The translations under genes and the position numbers were made by a program. Below are positions 7,951 through 13,014 of a stretch of 22,230 nt of DNA, in pieces. The stretch's first letter is position 1. Each line of letters opens with the position of its first letter. The stretch covers positions 1 through 22,230 of the IMG/VR virus record IMGVR_UViG_3300029567_000333. One strand, given 5' to 3'. The stretch comes from a virus (taxonomy: Duplodnaviria; Heunggongvirae; Uroviricota; Caudoviricetes). Below the pieces are notes generated by a model, which had not been told where the DNA came from, made no database searches, and was given only the letters and a program-made list of their open reading frames with translations.

Positions 7951-8967
7951 TTAATACAGATGAACAGAAGGCGGTAATTCTTTATTCTTAAGCCTTATCC
8001 ATGCAGAAAGATTTGTTGGTCCGTCTGGCTCATTGATATCAACATCTCGTGTGTGGTTGATTAAAACGTCTCTCGCCGTTCCGATAACATACGAGAACTC
8101 ATGACCGTAGTCGTAGCATCTGCCGGAATAGTTCGATTGAATTTGTTTTAATGCCGGATACAGTTCGCGGAATAATGCCTGTGAGCGGTTGGCATAATCC
8201 CATAACCATACAAGGCTGTTTGCTTCTTTTGCGGAAAGCTCGTTGGTGCTCTTCTCTTGTTTGCTAATGAACTCACCTTCAAGTGGAACTCGAGCTGCAA
8301 GTGACAGTGCTTCGGTAAACTGCTCCTCACTGATTTCTTTGTACGAACATCCAAAATGGGATTTCAGTGACGACCACATGGTGATCATCGCCTTCGCCTG
8401 TTTTTCTTTTGGCAGAGACTGACCGCGACTCATGACAAGTTGTTTAATGGCTTCCTGCTGTTCAGTGGTGATTTTGCCCGGCAACGCCTTTTTAGCTTTG
8501 CGCGGGTTAACCACATGGCCTTTAGTCCAGTAGTCATGCAGCACAGTAAAGCATTCTTCCTGGTACTGAATCAGTTTATCGCGGATGTCAGCACGAACTT
8601 TCTCAGGGTTGATGCTGAACAGCCATCCATTTAACTTCTTCAAAGGAAGGCAGAGTAGCTTACGAAGCTTCCCATCAGCAGCAACCATATTCATATGAAT
8701 ACAGTTGAACTTATCTAGTTGTTTCATAAGTTTTTGTTGCTGAGTACCCCAGCTCATTCCGAGGTTTTCAACGATTGGCTTCATCGCAACATATGCAACT
8801 CCTGCAGCCATGGCGGTGATAATTTGCTGACCGTTGAAGGGTACGTAAGAGGTGTTCACTGCTTCTAAAATTGCTATACTATTCATATCAGTTTTCTCGT
8901 AGTTAACTGGTAATTTAGAAGCCTCAATGGTTGCAGCCATTGGGGCTTCGCTGTTTTTAGCGACCAT
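7951..8967 (-). CDS. ant: antirepressor (Ant-like)
   Basis: N-terminal region ([37 protein letters not shown]...[16 protein letters not shown]) has the shape of phage antirepressor N-terminal domains. Lies directly 3' of an Arc-like gene and divergent from an Mnt-like gene, as in P22 immI. ATG at 8967 has a GAGGTGG Shine-Dalgarno and overlaps the arc-like stop by 11 nt. A start at 8886 is also possible. Confidence 0.65.
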
Positions 8968-9130
8968 TCGCCACCTCTTCCCTAACACCTTTTGCCAGCA
9001 AACGAACAATTGCAGAGTTCAGAGATATACAGTCCATTTCCGCCAGGCGGCGAAGGTCTTCATTCAGCCGTGATGGAAGGCGAAGGTTGAGTTTGATATT
9101 TTTGCGCTCAGTGAAAAGTGTATCTTGCAT
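8957..9130 (-). CDS. arc: Arc-like ribbon-helix-helix repressor (57 aa, missed by the ORF track)
   Basis: Translation [57 protein letters not shown] has the beta-strand plus two helices layout of the Arc/MetJ family. AAGGAG Shine-Dalgarno 9 nt before the ATG at 9130. Confidence 0.7.
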
Positions 9131-9236
9131 TATCTAATCTCCTTTATTTGGTGCCAAAGTGACGCCATGAAGGCCATAATGCCACCATTGAAATCGTATG
9201 GCAATATGGCACCATGGTTTTTTTGAGAGATTTGCA
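9131..9236. promoter_or_regulatory. divergent promoter/operator region between the arc-ant and mnt-like genes
   Basis: Minus strand: TTGCCA (9204-9199), 17-nt spacer, CATTAT (9181-9176). Plus strand: CATAAT at 9175-9180, so the two -10 hexamers overlap. Dense GCCAT/ATGGC and GGTGCCA/TGGCACC inverted motifs are candidate operator half-sites. Confidence 0.45.
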
Positions 9237-9557
9237 ATGGCCGAAAAACAAGTAAAAGACTACGACAAGTTCAACCTCCGTTTTCCTGACGGAATGCGAG
9301 ATGCTATAGCTGAACGAGCTAAACGTAACGGCAGATCAATGAACTCAGAGATTGTGCAGATACTGGAAGATGCCTTGAATGCAGAAAATACTCTTGGGGA
9401 AATAGCAGACAAAATCAACAGCGTCTCGGTTCCGCTAAATGTTGATGCGCTAGTTCAACTTCAAGCCCAGGTTATCGCCATGCAAAAAGAAATACAGGAA
9501 AAGTTCAGAGAGCAAAACGAAAAGTTAAGAGAACTGCTAAACAAAAAACCCACCTGA
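9237..9557 (+). CDS. mnt: Mnt-like ribbon-helix-helix repressor
   Basis: FNLRFPDGMRDAIAERAKRNGRSMNSEIVQILEDAL closely matches the Mnt/Arc DNA-binding region as I recall it (FNFRMP...EANGRSMNSELLQIVQDAL in P22 Mnt). C-terminal half is heptad-like and coiled-coil-prone. Start taken at the ATG at 9237 (GAGAGA Shine-Dalgarno); the longer N-terminus from 9198 has none. Confidence 0.85.
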   Translation: MAEKQVKDYDKFNLRFPDGMRDAIAERAKRNGRSMNSEIVQILEDALNAENTLGEIADKINSVSVPLNVDALVQLQAQVIAMQKEIQEKFREQNEKLRELLNKKPT

Positions 9558-9570
9558 CGGTGGGTTTTTC
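9543..9570. terminator. bidirectional rho-independent terminator between convergent genes
   Basis: A-run (9543-9548), CCCACC-tgac-GGTGGG stem-loop, then TTTTT (9565-9569). The mnt-like stop TGA lies in the loop, and the convergent minus-strand gene ends at 9571. Confidence 0.75.
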
Positions 9571-10563
9571 TTATTCTTTATCTTTTAAGTCGATGGTTCT
9601 TTGTCCAATAACCTTTTCATCTATGTATTTCTCATACTCTTCTCGAGTATCAGAAACCATTGCAATACCAGTAACCTTACCTATTTGGGTTCTAAGAGCT
9701 TTAACTCCAACCTCTGATAAAAACTGGTGTATTTTATCGTTTTTGCTGCCTTTCTCTTCTTTTGACGTTTTTGCTAAATTAAATACCTTTCCTTCACTTC
9801 TGGCTAATGGGTAGTAAATGTGATCTATCGTAAGATATTTAAACGCCCACGGTCGCCCTCTAACTGGTTTGTCTATACCATACAGACGATACCAATGCTC
9901 ATAAAGTTCAGGGGTGAACTCTCTTTCATACTCACGAGCCTCTTCAGCAACATATCGCTTATATGCTTGAATTACTTCTTCTTTTGTTCTGTCATACCCT
10001 GCCAAAGCATAAACAAGCCCCTGAATTCCCGCCTTGGCTGATGCATCAATAATTATCCTGGCTTGCTTAGCAATCCCTTCCTGACTAGAAAGCAACTTAC
10101 CTTCAGCTTTAGCGTTAGAGATTGCTCGACATAAATCAATTAAGATTGTTACATCGTAGCCATGTATTACAGGGTTAGCTGGTGTGTTCGTGCCCACCTG
10201 TTTGTATTGAAAAATAAGAGGATTTTCAAGTTTTGCCCTTAATTCATGCCCGATATACTGAGAAATAGTTTTCCCCTGAATAAACTTTGGCAACCTGCTG
10301 CCACCTTCGCCAAGACCAATCGCTTCTCCCATGCCTCTCTGGCTAATAACGGCAGTTTTGTTATCATCATTTAACACATAGCACTCAACATCAATCCCGA
10401 ATTCATGCTGGAACGATCCCTTATGCGTAGCAATTAATGGTTTATCCTTCCATCTTGCAGCCGCTGCTTTCTTTGCTATTTCAGAACGCTGCTCTTTAGT
10501 CAGCGACTTTGCGCGAGCGATTCCGCCCTTAGCTTTCCCTTCACCACTTTTCTTTTCAGTCAT
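9571..10563 (-). CDS. hypothetical protein, possibly P63C-domain-like; function unknown
   Basis: 330 aa from the ATG at 10563, which has an AAGGTG Shine-Dalgarno 8 nt upstream. Basic N-terminus (KKSGEGKAKGGIARAKSLTKEQRSEIAKKAAAARWK). The gene is visibly more AT-rich than the structural genes. The P63C resemblance is from memory and unverified. Confidence 0.45.
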   Translation of the reverse strand: MTEKKSGEGKAKGGIARAKSLTKEQRSEIAKKAAAARWKDKPLIATHKGSFQHEFGIDVECYVLNDDNKTAVISQRGMGEAIGLGEGGSRLPKFIQGKTISQYIGHELRAKLENPLIFQYKQVGTNTPANPVIHGYDVTILIDLCRAISNAKAEGKLLSSQEGIAKQARIIIDASAKAGIQGLVYALAGYDRTKEEVIQAYKRYVAEEAREYEREFTPELYEHWYRLYGIDKPVRGRPWAFKYLTIDHIYYPLARSEGKVFNLAKTSKEEKGSKNDKIHQFLSEVGVKALRTQIGKVTGIAMVSDTREEYEKYIDEKVIGQRTIDLKDKE

Positions 10564-10564
10564 A

Positions 10565-10654
10565 ATGCAAGCACCTTTGCTGTGATATATGCTTGCATTA
10601 TATGCACTGTACCCACATACAAGCAAGCATAAAACAAAAGCAAAATGCTTGCAT
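10565..10654. promoter_or_regulatory. array of four 10-bp near-palindromes ATGC(W)(W)GCAT with a putative promoter
   Basis: ATGCAAGCAc at 10565-10574, ATGCTTGCAT at 10589-10598, aaGCAAGCAT at 10621-10630, ATGCTTGCAT at 10645-10654, giving two units of inverted half-sites 24 bp apart. On the minus strand a perfect TATAAT (10602-10597) with a weak TTGCTT -35 lies among them, and the repeats overlap the -35, the transcription start and the Shine-Dalgarno. Confidence 0.55.
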
Positions 10655-10771
10655 TGCAACCGCACTACTCCAACTACACAGTATCATCTGGTATCCTGCG
10701 TAAAACCGAGTGTTGCGTGCTTTTGCTTAAGTTAACGGATACAAACATAGGAAACGTTACAAGGGGAAAGA

Positions 10772-11230
10772 ATGAAATCCAGATTTTTCACAATAGCAAT
10801 ATTTTCTTCCGTTCTTCTATCACTCGCAGCTTATGCTGCATCCGACAAAGATAAGGAAAAAATGATGTCTTTAATAAAAGATGCTTCTCCTTATGTTGCA
10901 GGCATGGGCAAAAGCATTGATGAAGTTTGTCAGGATATGGCTAACGACATGGTAAAAAAGTATGGAAATCAACTTAGTGCTATTGGCAAGTCACCGTCAG
11001 ATATACGAGATTCATCGTATGGTATATGCTTTGACGCTGCATCTTCAGCATCATTATCGCAATCCATAGAAGAAGTAAGCATGTGGAAAAATGCAGCAAT
11101 GCAAAACATTAACGCCACATTCCGAGGCGAGAATGAGCAATCTCCCGCGCGAAAATTTCTCGTTGAGACAATTGATCACTCTGAGAAAATGGCAAAAACA
11201 ATTGCATTCATGCGGGAAATTAGTCAATAG
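10772..11230 (+). CDS. small secreted (periplasmic) protein of unknown function
   Basis: N-terminal signal peptide (MKSR, hydrophobic core FFTIAIFSSVLLSLAA, AYA-AS cleavage motif) with no lipobox cysteine. Two Cys in the mature part. AAGGGGA Shine-Dalgarno. AT-rich. Converges on the tape measure gene with an 8-nt gap. Confidence 0.65.
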   Translation: MKSRFFTIAIFSSVLLSLAAYAASDKDKEKMMSLIKDASPYVAGMGKSIDEVCQDMANDMVKKYGNQLSAIGKSPSDIRDSSYGICFDAASSASLSQSIEEVSMWKNAAMQNINATFRGENEQSPARKFLVETIDHSEKMAKTIAFMREISQ

Positions 11231-11238
11231 CAAATCTG

Positions 11239-13014
11239 CTAAGGCACTGCACTTGAAAATGCCTGATTTACTGATGATCTGCGATTCAACTCCTTAAATC
11301 CTTCGGTTAGTTTTGAGGATTGATCCGTTTTGGCAATTACCTTTACCTCTCCTATGTGCTGGCTGTTGTAATTGTTAACAACGCTTTGGGTATAGGATTG
11401 ATTTGCAGATCCATTAGCCAATCTTTGCTGAGTTTGGTAGTAAGCGGCATTGCTATTTTTCGTTGGGTTACCATAATCAAGACCCCGCTTCCAATCTGGA
11501 TAACCTTCATGCCTAGCCATATAGGCGCTAAGTTTTGCCATAACCTCTGGATCTGAGAGGTTTAGCTTATCATTGGCACCAACGCCCATAGACTTAGAAA
11601 CCTGGTCAATATACGCCTTTGTGTTGTTTTCTGAGGATGGTGCCCACTTGCTTATTATTCCTTGCAACGTATCAAGCTTATCTCTTTTGTAGTATAGAGT
11701 CAGTTGATTCCTGGCGGCCTCCCAACCCTCTTCTGGGTCGAAGTATTGAGCAAATCCGTCTTTGTCTCTTCTTCTGTTTCCAGTAGCTTTAAGATTTAAT
11801 GGGTTATTGTTTCTGTCAGGCCTGTTGACACCATTTTTGTTAGGAGGAATCTCTTTATTTGGATCGTCATAATCCAGCCCAATGAGCCTTTCAAGCCAAT
11901 GCTGCTGAAATGCGAATGGCCGCATCTCATCAGGAACATCTTTATACTGGTCTTGTACCATCTGCCCAAAAATACCAACAGCACCGATTAATCCCAGCTT
12001 GCTTCCTAACCCCTTGCCGCTAAGAAGAGCCATGGCAGCAAGAATGCCCAATGCGTTTCCAGCGCCACCAACGGCTTTAACAAAACCATCAATACCTGTA
12101 CTCAGGTTCCTGAAGAACCCAACAATGTCACCCTTGTTGTTTTTCAGCCACTCTAAAAACTCCTGTTCAGCTTTAAGCACTTCAGGGCCAAATGTAGCCA
12201 TTAATTCTTGTTTAACCTGAGCAAATTGCGAGTCAAGGGCTTTAGTCGTAGCAAGAATGTTGCGCTGTGCTTCTTCCTGCTCTTTGGTCATCTGCCATCG
12301 TTTTTCTTCCTCAGATACCATCTGCACAGCTTTTCCGCTTTTAATATCCCCGGCAAGATTAGGGTCATAACCAAAAGCAGAAAGCACTTGCATTAACTGT
12401 TTCTCGTTATGGTTCTTCCCATATTTCTGAAATTCCGCCAGAGCATCTTCTGATTTACCTCCAAGCTTACTAATATCAATGCCTGTTCTCGCTCCAGTTG
12501 TTAGTAAATTCTGAGCCTCCGGTGTAAGTCCGCCGAAAATTGTTGGGTCTTCTATATTGGCAAGCGCCATCCTGGCGCTCATCTGTGCCCCAAGGAACGC
12601 GCCGCCGTTCTGACCAATTCGGGAGAATCCATACTGAGTACCAAGAACGTTACTGGCGCTTGTTCCAAGCATTCTCCCCATATTACTGGCTCTTACAATT
12701 GACTCCGAAGTACTTTCAAATGCACGATGAATGCCAATGGCTACGGCAGTCAACACACCGCCAACAGCCACAAAGCGTGTCGAAAGCCCCAAAAAACCAT
12801 TAAATGAAGCAGTCAACCCTTTCATTGCAACAGCAGCTTTGTCGGTCTCCTTAGCCGTTTTGGACATCGAGGAGGTTGTTGACCTTTCTATCGCAGATGA
12901 AGATCTCTCTATTTCGTTTTTAAGGTCTTGTGCTTCCTGCTTTACTTTCCGTTTTCCATTCAGGAATTCATCGGCCTTAATTGTGACCTTGTAGGCCAAC
13001 TCATTGATAATCAT
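11239..13014 (-). CDS. tail tape measure protein
   Basis: 591 aa, directly downstream of the chaperone pair. Gly/Ala-rich hydrophobic segments (AVGGVLTAVAIGI, GGAGNALGILAAMALLSGKGLGSKLGLIGAVGIFG) and a charged coiled-coil-like stretch. C-terminal region (NNNPLNLKATG...YFDPEEGWEAARNQL...) looks like a separate globular domain of unknown identity. Confidence 0.7.
   Translation of the reverse strand: MIINELAYKVTIKADEFLNGKRKVKQEAQDLKNEIERSSSAIERSTTSSMSKTAKETDKAAVAMKGLTASFNGFLGLSTRFVAVGGVLTAVAIGIHRAFESTSESIVRASNMGRMLGTSASNVLGTQYGFSRIGQNGGAFLGAQMSARMALANIEDPTIFGGLTPEAQNLLTTGARTGIDISKLGGKSEDALAEFQKYGKNHNEKQLMQVLSAFGYDPNLAGDIKSGKAVQMVSEEEKRWQMTKEQEEAQRNILATTKALDSQFAQVKQELMATFGPEVLKAEQEFLEWLKNNKGDIVGFFRNLSTGIDGFVKAVGGAGNALGILAAMALLSGKGLGSKLGLIGAVGIFGQMVQDQYKDVPDEMRPFAFQQHWLERLIGLDYDDPNKEIPPNKNGVNRPDRNNNPLNLKATGNRRRDKDGFAQYFDPEEGWEAARNQLTLYYKRDKLDTLQGIISKWAPSSENNTKAYIDQVSKSMGVGANDKLNLSDPEVMAKLSAYMARHEGYPDWKRGLDYGNPTKNSNAAYYQTQQRLANGSANQSYTQSVVNNYNSQHIGEVKVIAKTDQSSKLTEGFKELNRRSSVNQAFSSAVP

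What the first reader, a model, noticed from the sequence alone, without database searches (positions are those of the whole stretch)
9571..10563. AT-rich 330-aa gene of unknown function under the operator array
The gene is compositionally distinct from the structural genes, has a basic Lys/Ala-rich N-terminus followed by a globular region, is convergent with the mnt-like gene across a bidirectional terminator, and is expressed from the repeat-controlled promoter. I have a weak recollection of this architecture in P63C-domain phage proteins, but no function is known to me. It is a candidate phage-encoded exclusion or defence determinant.
Basis: inference. Interest (0 to 1): 0.55.

Follow-up and report, generated by a model that had tools for sequence, protein, structure and literature searches.

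The report
Self-regulated P63C prophage accessory gene
The gene is real and belongs to the uncharacterised P63C family; it travels as a self-contained cassette whose promoter lies under four copies of a 10-base site conserved with the family across bacterial phyla, so the protein most likely binds its own promoter, but a phage-defence role remains a guess from its location.

Summary
Window 9571-10563 (-) encodes a soluble 330-aa protein. It has low GC (40.7% against 48.6% in the late genes) and a Lys/Ala-rich N-terminus. It is convergent with the mnt-like gene across a shared terminator and lies under a repeat array.

It is a P63C-domain protein (Pfam PF10546, PHROG 2384), a family with no known function. 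It matched no defence model and no close solved fold.

New here:
- Terminator, gene and promoter (9543-10706) form a mobile cassette. It is 97.5% identical in a P22-like prophage.
- Relatives sit after cI repressors and inside IS1-like transposons.
- Four ATGCAAGCAT-type sites overlay the -35, the -10/start site and the ribosome site/ATG. The same order and spacing recur in 62 of 81 loci from many phyla.
- The array is found only with a 30-aa N-terminal basic motif.
- Both stay constant where the rest of the gene is swapped for a 54%-identical allele.

Best reading: an autorepressed, sequence-specific DNA-binding protein expressed from the prophage. Its effector role is possibly a BstA-like exclusion function, supported only by location. 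It is an ordinary family member, but the analysis gives testable predictions.

The parts
9543..10706 (-). Mobile cassette ('moron'): terminator, gene and promoter/operator array
   Evidence: This exact stretch is 97.5% identical in a P22-like prophage of E. coli MS 21-1. There it lies between mnt/ClpP-like genes and the DNA-ejection genes, while the flanks are unrelated.
9544..9569 (.). Two-way intrinsic terminator shared with the convergent mnt-like gene
   Evidence: A stem of 11 pairs with a 4-nt loop, and T-runs on both strands. It lies between the mnt stop (9555-9557) and the P63C stop (9571-9573).
9571..10563 (-). P63C-family protein gene, 330 aa
   Evidence: PHROG 2384 matches over the full length (E 3.5e-103). 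RefSeq calls a 99%-identical cluster 'P63C domain-containing protein'. No transmembrane segment: the highest 19-residue Kyte-Doolittle mean is 1.32. The AF2 model has mean pLDDT 84.4.
10450..10536 (-). N-terminal basic two-helix motif (aa 10-38, KAKGGIARAKSLTKEQRSEIAKKAAAARW), the proposed operator-binding module
   Evidence: Helices at 9-20 and 23-39. The motif is found only together with the operator array. The same motif ends a small ORF in the IS1-like units. It stays ~100% identical where the rest of the gene is replaced.
10153..10437 (-). Alpha/beta domain (aa 43-137), possibly Bro-N-like
   Evidence: AF2 strands at 43-50, 60-64, 71-74, 116-120 and 132-137, with helices between them. Bro-N proteins dominate the weak BFVD Foldseek matches (E 0.016-0.5). 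No Pfam Bro-N or KilA-N match.
9697..9960 (-). Pfam P63C domain match (aa 202-289) within the all-helical C-terminal half (aa 138-319)
10565..10574 (-). Operator site R2, between the ribosome-binding site (AAGG, 10574-10577) and the start codon
   Evidence: In 72 unique arrays the core TGCTTGC lies 0-3 nt before the start codon, with AGGA directly upstream.
10589..10598 (-). Operator site F2, overlapping the end of the -10 hexamer and the predicted transcription start (~10590)
   Evidence: The site is an exact ATGCAAGCAT on the - strand. TAnn[AT]T lies directly before the F2 core in 58 of 72 arrays, against 4 of 72 before F1.
10597..10602 (-). Predicted -10 hexamer TATAAT
   Evidence: Read. 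Its position is conserved across the family. The consensus scan missed it because the -35 matches only 3 of 6.
10621..10630 (-). Operator site R1, containing the predicted -35 hexamer TTGCTT (10621-10626; 18-nt spacer)
   Evidence: TTGCAT, TTGCAA or TTGCTT lies inside R1, with a 17-18 nt spacer to the -10, in 66 of 72 arrays.
10645..10654 (-). Operator site F1, upstream of the promoter
   Evidence: The site is an exact ATGCAAGCAT on the - strand. The F1-R1 gap is 15-16 nt in 57 of 78 arrays.

Best explanation
The gene is the cargo of a self-contained prophage accessory cassette: its own promoter, its own operators and its own terminator. It encodes a soluble, probably non-enzymatic, sequence-specific DNA-binding protein of the P63C family.

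Proposed mechanism:
- The N-terminal basic two-helix motif (aa 10-38) recognises ATGCAAGCAT-type sites.
- Four such sites are arranged as two inverted pairs. They cover the -35 (R1), the -10/start site (F2) and the ribosome site/ATG (R2), with one further site upstream (F1).
- The protein therefore shuts off its own sigma-70-type promoter and holds its level low and constant in the lysogen, independently of the late operon that runs through the region.
- The rest of the protein (an alpha/beta domain, possibly Bro-N-like, plus the helical P63C domain) is an exchangeable effector part.
- Its most likely job is a lysogen-expressed exclusion or abortive-infection function against other phages or mobile DNA, working like BstA.

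Shown here: the cassette, its mobility, the array and promoter geometry, and the link between motif and array.

Inferred: that the protein binds the array (my estimate about 0.75).

Guessed from location only: the defence role (about 0.3-0.35).
For: Family and spread:
- Family membership.
- 2766 homologues, 55-67% identical across Proteobacteria, Acidobacteriota, Firmicutes, Chloroflexi and Myxococcota.
- The cassette 9543-10706 is 97.5% identical in an unrelated (P22-like) prophage.

Array:
- Core 7-mers GCAAGCA/TGCTTGC occur in the order F1-R1-F2-R2, at about -85, -63, -30 and -7 from the start, in 62 of 81 loci. Density is 17 per kb upstream against 0.18 per kb elsewhere in the same loci.
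- The 32%-identical ST104 ORF23 has the same array.
- The spacers between the sites are not conserved.

Promoter geometry: the -10, -35 and ribosome-site positions relative to the sites are conserved.

Who binds: the P63C protein is the only protein common to all array-bearing loci. In the window no other ORF carries the motif and no second array exists.

Motif and array (genome loci, which were chosen by body-domain patterns and so independently of the array):
- Motif with canonical array: 60.
- Motif without canonical array: 13, of which 11 have variant arrays.
- No motif and no array: 6.
- No motif but an array: 0.
- Fisher p = 1e-4 for the canonical array, 1e-7 when variant arrays are counted.
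- The acidobacterial subfamily changes both the operator (GCAAGTAT) and the motif (REIARAA[IV]QARW).

Modularity: the array plus codons 1-38 stay ~100% identical while codons 39-330 are replaced by a 54%-identical allele. This is seen in both myovirus-type and P22-like prophages.

Not an enzyme: no invariant acidic or His residues across 72 diverse members.

Location:
- A sister prophage holds a Panacea-domain pair in the same slot.
- A cI-like repressor lies directly upstream, in the same orientation, in 19 of 68 viral contigs and in ST104.
- BstA has a comparable layout (a KilA-N-like N-terminal domain plus a second domain), lies after cI, and has a DNA self-immunity element spanning its own start codon.
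Against: - No binding was measured.
- No match to any PADLOC defence model and no literature.
- About 40% of genomic relatives ride in an IS1-like transposon, with the array between the P63C gene and the divergent transposase gene. There a plain repressor role is enough.
- The loci are phylogenetically related, so the Fisher tests overstate independence.
- The viral loci were selected by the array itself and cannot be used for that test.
- The Bro-N assignment rests on weak matches (E > 0.01). hhalign found no relation to the P22 antirepressor N-domain.
Confidence: 0.45

Rival explanations
1. The protein is only a transcription regulator. It represses its own gene and whatever is transcribed divergently from the array. 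That is the transposase in the IS1-like elements and the 152-aa secreted-protein gene (10772-11230) in this prophage. It has no exclusion function.
For: - The array fills most of the 75-140 nt between the divergent transposase and P63C genes. Extra half-sites (CAAGCAT...ATGCTTGAGCGG) lie next to the transposase start.
- In the immI-slot enteric prophages examined (window, L001, L002, L003) a small gene is transcribed divergently from the array.
- No catalytic-type conserved residues.
Against: - 330 aa with a highly conserved 280-aa body is large for a repressor whose proposed DNA-binding part is 30 aa.
- The body is exchanged as divergent alleles while the operators stay fixed. That is odd if the body only serves repression.
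- ST104-type copies sit after cI with no divergent gene, yet keep all four sites.
- The divergent genes are unrelated to each other.
Confidence: 0.25
2. The repeats act as RNA, not as protein-binding DNA. In transcripts that read through from upstream (late operon), they fold into a long hairpin that buries the ribosome site and start codon. The gene is then translated only from its own short transcript.
For: RNA of 10665..10550 (-) folds to -48.5 kcal/mol (z -4.8; 0 of 200 shuffles fold as well). F1 pairs with R2 and R1 with F2, covering the ribosome site and the ATG. The late operon is on the same strand.
Against: - The arm sequences themselves are invariant across phyla, rather than merely complementary.
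- The conserved -10 directly before F2 puts the native start inside F2, so the native mRNA lacks F1, R1 and most of F2.
- In IS1-like units the upstream gene is divergent, so there is no read-through to insulate against, yet F1/R1 are kept.
- This may be an added benefit in phages rather than the main role.
Confidence: 0.1
3. It is an antirepressor-like or anti-defence protein of the Bro/Ant class. It binds a protein of a competing phage or of the host rather than acting through DNA.
For: - Weak structural matches to Bro-N, 'repressor domain' and antirepressor proteins.
- It lies next to the immI arc-ant-mnt module.
- From my memory of the domain's original description (Iyer, Koonin and Aravind 2002, which I could not retrieve), P63C was grouped with such shuffled regulators.
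Against: - Antirepressors are kept off in lysogens by other repressors (Mnt, Arc). This gene has its own constitutive-type promoter under self-control.
- No sequence relation to the P22 antirepressor.
- Occurrence in IS1-like transposons of non-phage DNA.
Confidence: 0.08
4. It is the toxic half of an addiction (toxin-antitoxin-like) module. In IS1-like units the small basic ORF is its antidote. In phages, tight autorepression replaces the antidote.
For: - A convergent small ORF, sharing the N-terminal motif and overlapping the 3' end, is present in 18 of 79 loci.
- A TA-like pair occupies the same slot in E. coli E423.
- Some copies are disrupted, by IS5 in GPEC1405 and by an insertion in L158.
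Against: - Most copies (about three quarters) have no small ORF.
- The small-ORF family is far larger than the P63C family (at least 7989 homologues).
- No toxin-type fold or catalytic residues.
Confidence: 0.07

Closest known systems
Pfam PF10546 'P63C domain' / PHROG 2384 (named after Myxococcus phage Mx8 p63)
   Same: Full-length member. 99% identical to a RefSeq cluster annotated 'P63C domain-containing protein'. The model also matches Mx8 p63 structurally (Foldseek E 2e-3).
   Different: Nothing differs. However, the family has no assigned function, no solved structure and no experimental paper that I could find.
BstA, prophage abortive-infection protein of Salmonella phage BTP1 (Owen et al. 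2021, PMC8585504)
   Same: - About 300 aa and two-part: an N-terminal viral DNA-binding-type domain plus a second domain.
- Carried by prophages. Relatives of the window gene sit in the same place, directly after cI.
- A functional DNA element spans the upstream region and start codon of its own gene.
   Different: - No sequence similarity: no PADLOC or Pfam KilA-N hit.
- The window copy is in immI, not after cI.
- aba is a single 63-bp element with no resemblance to the ATGCAAGCAT array.
- BstA reportedly shares the repressor's promoter, whereas this gene has its own.
- A defence phenotype is untested here.
P22 immI region and its sieA slot (from my knowledge of P22 genetics; not tested here)
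   Same: Same neighbourhood: ejection or tape-measure gene, accessory gene(s), mnt, arc, ant. A sub-threshold sar-like antisense RNA match is also present.
   Different: As I recall it, SieA is a small inner-membrane protein. This protein is 330 aa, soluble and predicted to bind DNA. I did not compare it with a SieA sequence.
Bro-N / KilA-N class of shuffled viral regulators
   Same: Similar layout: an N-terminal alpha/beta domain followed by a helical C-terminal domain. Bro-N proteins dominate the weak structural matches.
   Different: No Bro-N or KilA-N profile match. Every structural match has E above 0.01. The extra N-terminal basic motif is not part of that class.
IS1-family insertion sequences carrying passenger genes
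   Same: Relatives lie inside 2.3-2.9 kb units. These have an IS1-type DDE transposase, terminal inverted repeats GGTAGTGnCTCAGTTTGAAAT and 6-8 bp direct flanking repeats.
   Different: The window copy has no transposase, no inverted repeats and no small ORF. It is a phage-borne copy of the cargo only.

Membership tests
P63C domain family (PF10546 / PHROG 2384) | Profile match above the curated threshold | tested here: met
   PF10546: 35.8 bits against a gathering score of 26.1, covering aa 202-289. PHROG 2384: E 3.5e-103 over residues 6-328.
P63C domain family (PF10546 / PHROG 2384) | Full-length collinear homology with other members | tested here: met
   50- and 72-sequence alignments are collinear over about 325 aa, down to 28% identity. 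1888 cluster representatives have E <= 1e-3.
BstA abortive-infection family | Sequence homology to BstA, or a KilA-N(-like) N-terminal domain | tested here: not met
   No PADLOC model matches at E <= 1 and there is no Pfam KilA-N hit. I assumed, but did not verify, that PADLOC 2.0 holds a BstA model. The published KilA-N call was made with HHpred, which I could not run.
BstA abortive-infection family | Encoded directly downstream of the prophage repressor | tested here: not met
   The window copy lies in immI, between mnt and the tape-measure-like gene. Relatives do meet this feature: ST104 ORF23 and 19 of 68 viral contigs.
BstA abortive-infection family | Cognate DNA self-immunity element overlapping the gene's 5' end | tested here: inconclusive
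   A conserved DNA array spans -90 to the start codon. Whether it neutralises the protein cannot be told from sequence.
BstA abortive-infection family | Abortive-infection phenotype | not testable with these tools
   Needs phage challenge experiments.
Bro-N / KilA-N domain proteins | Profile or fold match to the N-terminal DNA-binding domain | tested here: inconclusive
P22 SieA-type superinfection exclusion | Small inner-membrane protein | tested here: not met
   330 aa with no hydrophobic segment: the highest 19-residue Kyte-Doolittle mean is 1.32. The model is a soluble helical and alpha/beta protein. No direct sequence comparison with SieA was made.
Known anti-phage defence systems (PADLOC-DB 2.0) | Match to any of the 5027 models | tested here: not met
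   No hit for the window protein, the 54%-identical allele or ST104 ORF23.
IS1-family transposon with passenger genes | DDE transposase, terminal inverted repeats and target duplication around the gene | tested here: not met
   None of these is present in the window. They are met for 23-32 of the ~80 genomic relatives.
   No such hit in Pfam, PHROGs or NCBIfam.

The most novel reading that the evidence does not exclude
The P63C cassette is a two-part self/non-self system carried by prophages and IS1-like transposons. The protein attacks or blocks replicating foreign DNA. The ATGCAAGCAT array doubles as an 'identity tag' that titrates or switches off the protein on the element that carries it, like BstA/aba but in an unrelated family found across phyla. 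The swappable body would set target specificity. The N-terminal motif would then be a new, portable, short DNA-recognition module, shared with a family of at least 8000 small 'histone H1-like' proteins.
Probability: 0.15. Interest if true: 0.75.

Novelty: new member of a known kind. Interest (0 to 1): 0.5.

Why it matters
P63C is a widespread phage and mobile-element protein family: thousands of members across many phyla, 55-67% identical across the phyla sampled. It has had no function, no structure and no regulatory model.

The comparison made here turns it into a tractable problem. It predicts:
- a specific 10-bp DNA target;
- a promoter with defined -35, -10 and start site;
- a 30-residue recognition motif;
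- a modular boundary at codon 38.

All of these can be tested with a reporter and a gel shift.

If the protein proves to be an exclusion factor, it would add a family that occupies both classical prophage 'immunity' slots (after cI and in immI) and also rides on transposons. If it proves to be only a repressor, it is an example of an insertion sequence carrying a dedicated regulator that phages have borrowed.

For annotation of this window the gene is an ordinary accessory gene, not a structural or lysis gene.

Tried and rejected
- PADLOC and NCBIfam scans of the protein, its 54% allele and ST104 ORF23: no hits.
- Profile search of PDB sequences: only spurious matches to designed repeat proteins, on a 25-residue stretch.
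- The AlphaFold-database fold library was not available.
- hhalign of the family against an alignment of P22-type antirepressors: probability 0.2, rejected.
- Literature: 'P63C' is swamped by p63 oncology and crystallography space groups. Only three phage papers mention the domain, none functionally. The paper that defined the domain could not be retrieved. A search for IS1 passenger genes gave nothing relevant.
- Rfam scan of 8800-11400: nothing at the array except a meaningless microRNA match at E 0.1.
- Host factor as the binder of the array: rejected, because the array is invariant from Firmicutes to Acidobacteriota and always comes with the gene.
- Transposase or small ORF as the binder in this window: rejected, because neither is present.
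- Scan of viral contigs for the site pair: 36 of the 80 listed loci had no P63C-family ORF next to the site pair. Most of these matches looked like chance, many lying inside unrelated coding sequence. A few were at contig ends or belonged to a split P63C gene. One (L092) may be an orphan array.
- No operator-type sites upstream of the small ORF in IS units.

Full report
**1. What is there**

The window is part of a myovirus-type prophage. It has baseplate J, a DUF3383 sheath and a major capsid gene, all on the - strand.

A P22-like immI module is inserted between the tape-measure-like gene (11239-13014, -) and the baseplate genes:
- ant (7951-9009, -; P22_AR_N and P22_AR_C domains);
- arc (8957-9130, -);
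- an mnt-like Arc-family gene (9198-9557, +).

The finding's ORF is real. It runs from 10563 to 9571 on the - strand and gives 330 aa. Homologues begin at this ATG, not at the upstream GTG.

The gene has GC 0.407 and GC3 0.33, against GC 0.486 and GC3 0.50-0.55 for the late genes. Its first 42 residues hold 13 K/R and 8 A. It has no hydrophobic segment.

Its stop codon is 2 nt from a hairpin (9544-9569) that overlaps the last codons of the convergent mnt-like gene and has T-runs on both strands.

Upstream lie four ATGC[AT][AT]GCAT sites within 90 nt. In 300 shuffles of the window no 100-nt span held more than two.

**2. What family it is**

The protein matches Pfam P63C (PF10546, above threshold) and PHROG 2384 over its full length. 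Both are of unknown function. NCBIfam and PADLOC give nothing.

It is 99% identical to a RefSeq cluster named 'P63C domain-containing protein'. The family is large: 2766 homologues in the 90% clusters and 1888 representatives at 50% identity.

The family is strikingly conserved. Identity is 55-67% in Proteobacteria, Acidobacteriota, Firmicutes, Chloroflexi, Myxococcota and others.

I found no paper that tests any member.

**3. Structure**

With a 72-sequence alignment AlphaFold2 gives mean pLDDT 84.4. The model has:
- two basic helices (9-20, 23-39);
- an alpha/beta domain (43-137);
- an all-helical half (138-319) that contains the Pfam match.

Foldseek against viral models finds Mx8 p63 (E 2e-3). 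It then gives a long run of weak matches (E 0.016-0.5) dominated by Bro-N proteins. That is suggestive for the alpha/beta domain but not proof. hhalign shows no relation to the P22 antirepressor.

Across the 72 diverse members no acidic or histidine residue is invariant. The best-conserved polar residues are C61, C145 and Y250. This argues for a binding protein rather than an enzyme.

**4. A mobile cassette in accessory slots**

The stretch 9543-10706 (terminator, gene, array and about 50 nt beyond) is 97.5% identical in a P22-like prophage of E. coli MS 21-1. There it lies between mnt and the DNA-ejection genes, and the flanks are unrelated.

In a sister myovirus-type prophage (E. coli E423) the same slot holds a SocA/Panacea antitoxin-domain gene with a partner.

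The 32%-identical ST104 ORF23, present in about 18 further Salmonella phage records, lies directly after cI, before gene 24. In viral contigs a cI-like repressor lies directly upstream, in the same orientation, in 19 of 68 loci. That is the slot of bstA and, from my own knowledge, of lambda rex.

Unexpectedly, 23-32 of ~80 genomic relatives are cargo of an IS1-like transposon:
- a DDE transposase is transcribed divergently from the P63C gene;
- a small convergent ORF follows the P63C gene;
- the unit ends in inverted repeats GGTAGTGnCTCAGTTTGAAAT;
- 6-8 bp direct repeats flank the whole 2.3-2.9 kb unit.

**5. The array is a family hallmark**

The exact cores GCAAGCA/TGCTTGC occur in the order F1-R1-F2-R2 at about -85, -63, -30 and -7 from the start codon in 62 of 81 loci. 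Density is 17 per kb upstream against 0.18 per kb elsewhere in the same loci. ST104 ORF23 has the same array.

The intervening sequence is not conserved. In 72 unique oriented arrays:
- the gaps are 15-16, 25-26 and 15-16 nt;
- TAnn[AT]T lies directly before the F2 core in 58 of 72, but before F1 in only 4 of 72;
- TTGCAT, TTGCAA or TTGCTT inside R1 sits 17-18 nt upstream of that hexamer in 66 of 72;
- AGGA precedes R2, and the start codon follows R2 within 0-3 nt.

The sites therefore overlay the -35, the -10/start site and the translation start of a sigma-70-type promoter. In the window these are:
- -35: TTGCTT, 10621-10626;
- spacer: 18 nt;
- -10: TATAAT, 10597-10602;
- predicted start: near 10590;
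- ribosome-binding site: AAGG, 10574-10577.

A scan of viral contigs for the site pair returned a P63C-family gene next to it in 44 of the 80 listed loci. Most of the other 36 look like chance matches inside other genes.

**6. Who binds it**

No host factor is shared by such distant phyla, and the only gene always present is the P63C gene itself. In the window no other ORF has the motif and there is no second array.

Three observations point to the N-terminal basic motif.
- **Co-occurrence.** The genome loci were chosen through body-domain patterns, independently of the array. Among them: motif with canonical array 60; motif without it 13 (11 of these have variant arrays such as TATACTTGC...GCAAGTATA); neither motif nor array 6; array without motif 0. 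Fisher p is 1e-4, or 1e-7 when variant arrays are counted. Relatedness of the loci inflates these values.
- **Shared motif.** The small ORF of the IS units shares exactly this motif and nothing else.
- **Modular swap.** Between the window and E. coli WS4437A-1 the flanks, the array and codons 1-38 are ~100% identical, while codons 39-330 are only ~55% identical. The same two alleles occur in P22-like prophages.

The motif and the array thus behave as one module, and the body as an exchangeable second module.

**7. Mechanism proposed**

The protein binds the two inverted site pairs and represses its own promoter. This gives a low, steady level in the lysogen, independent of the late operon. I rate this at about 0.75. 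It is inferred, not measured.

As a possible extra, late read-through RNA would fold into a -48.5 kcal/mol hairpin that buries the start site. This cannot be the main role, for two reasons:
- the native start lies inside F2;
- the IS copies have no read-through, yet keep all four sites.

What the body does is open. Location favours a lysogen-expressed exclusion or abortive-infection role of the BstA type. I rate this at 0.3-0.35. The IS context fits a plain regulator equally well (0.25). Antirepressor-like and addiction readings are less likely.

**8. Comparison, novelty and verdict**

The gene is a typical member of a catalogued but uncharacterised family, so I class it as a new member of a known kind. 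It is not a BstA, SieA or Bro-N family member by the tests I could run.

What the analysis adds appears to be undescribed in the papers I could search:
- the cross-phylum operator array and its promoter geometry;
- the portable N-terminal motif;
- the allelic body swap;
- the IS1-like carrier.

Each is directly testable. Interest is moderate (0.5): ordinary as an annotation, useful as an entry point to an unknown family.

Noticed in passing
window 8886-8952 (+): Sub-threshold Rfam match to the P22 sar antisense RNA (RF00262, 28.6 bits against a gathering score of 43, E 0.006). It coincides with a terminator-like hairpin at 8918-8949 and is antisense to the arc/ant junction. This suggests P22-style antisense control of ant.
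   Followed up: partly
window 10772-11230 (+): A 152-aa ORF with an N-terminal signal peptide, transcribed divergently from the P63C promoter. It has no hit in Pfam, PHROGs, NCBIfam or PADLOC. Unrelated small ORFs occupy the same position in P22-like prophages (L002 9177-9506, L003 5473-5877).
   Followed up: partly
window 9130-9200: By eye, the arc/mnt intergenic region holds repeated TGGCACCA/TGGTGCCA-type sequences and overlapping divergent promoter-like sites. They are presumably Arc/Mnt operators and are unrelated to the ATGCAAGCAT sites.
   Followed up: no
L005 5472-6339 (E. coli E423 prophage): In a sister prophage the slot of the P63C gene holds a SocA/Panacea antitoxin-domain gene plus a 139-aa partner with a weak PADLOC NsnC match. 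The slot therefore exchanges accessory cargo.
   Followed up: partly
L002 7439-7975 (E. coli MS 21-1 prophage): A ClpP-like protease gene directly follows mnt in the P22-like prophage that carries the same P63C cassette.
   Followed up: no
window 9550-10449 compared with L001 and L003: Two P63C alleles (54% protein identity) share ~100% identical promoter, array and first 38 codons. Both alleles occur in myovirus-type and in P22-like prophages.
   Followed up: yes
L011, L029, L034, L045, L061 and others (e.g. L061 777-3534): IS1-like transposon units of 2.3-2.9 kb: transposase, array, P63C gene and a small basic ORF. They end in inverted repeats GGTAGTGnCTCAGTTTGAAAT and are flanked by 6-8 bp direct repeats (AAGACCCG in L061).
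   Followed up: yes
e.g. L038 3933-4223 (-): A small ORF (73-97 aa), convergent with and slightly overlapping the P63C gene, ends in the same GGKARAxxLTxEERSEIAKKAAxARW motif. The family has at least 7989 homologues and no Pfam entry, and is sometimes named 'histone H1'.
   Followed up: partly
L024, L032, L036, L037, L039, L052, L071 (Acidobacteriota): This subfamily has a different upstream repeat (TATACTTGCTCGGGCA ... CTCGGGCAAGTATA) and a correspondingly different N-terminal motif (REIARAA[IV]QARW). L059 and L068 use ATGCTTGAC/GTCAAGCAT.
   Followed up: partly
L069, L074, L080, L081, L083: P63C proteins that lack the N-terminal basic motif also lack any array. In L081 the gene follows a cI-like repressor gene and may be co-transcribed with it.
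   Followed up: partly
L092 5454-5486: A palindromic site pair (ATGCAAGCAT-N-TGCTTGCAT) lies upstream of an unrelated 160-aa ORF in a viral contig with no P63C gene nearby. It may be an orphan array or a chance match.
   Followed up: no
E. coli GPEC1405 (hit H62) and L158 3924-6144: Copies of the P63C gene are interrupted, by IS5 in GPEC1405 and by a ~1.3 kb insertion after the N-terminal codons in L158.
   Followed up: no
window protein residues C61, C145, Y250, G286: Two cysteines are conserved in 94-97% of 72 diverse members, and a tyrosine and a glycine are invariant. No invariant acidic or histidine residues.
   Followed up: no
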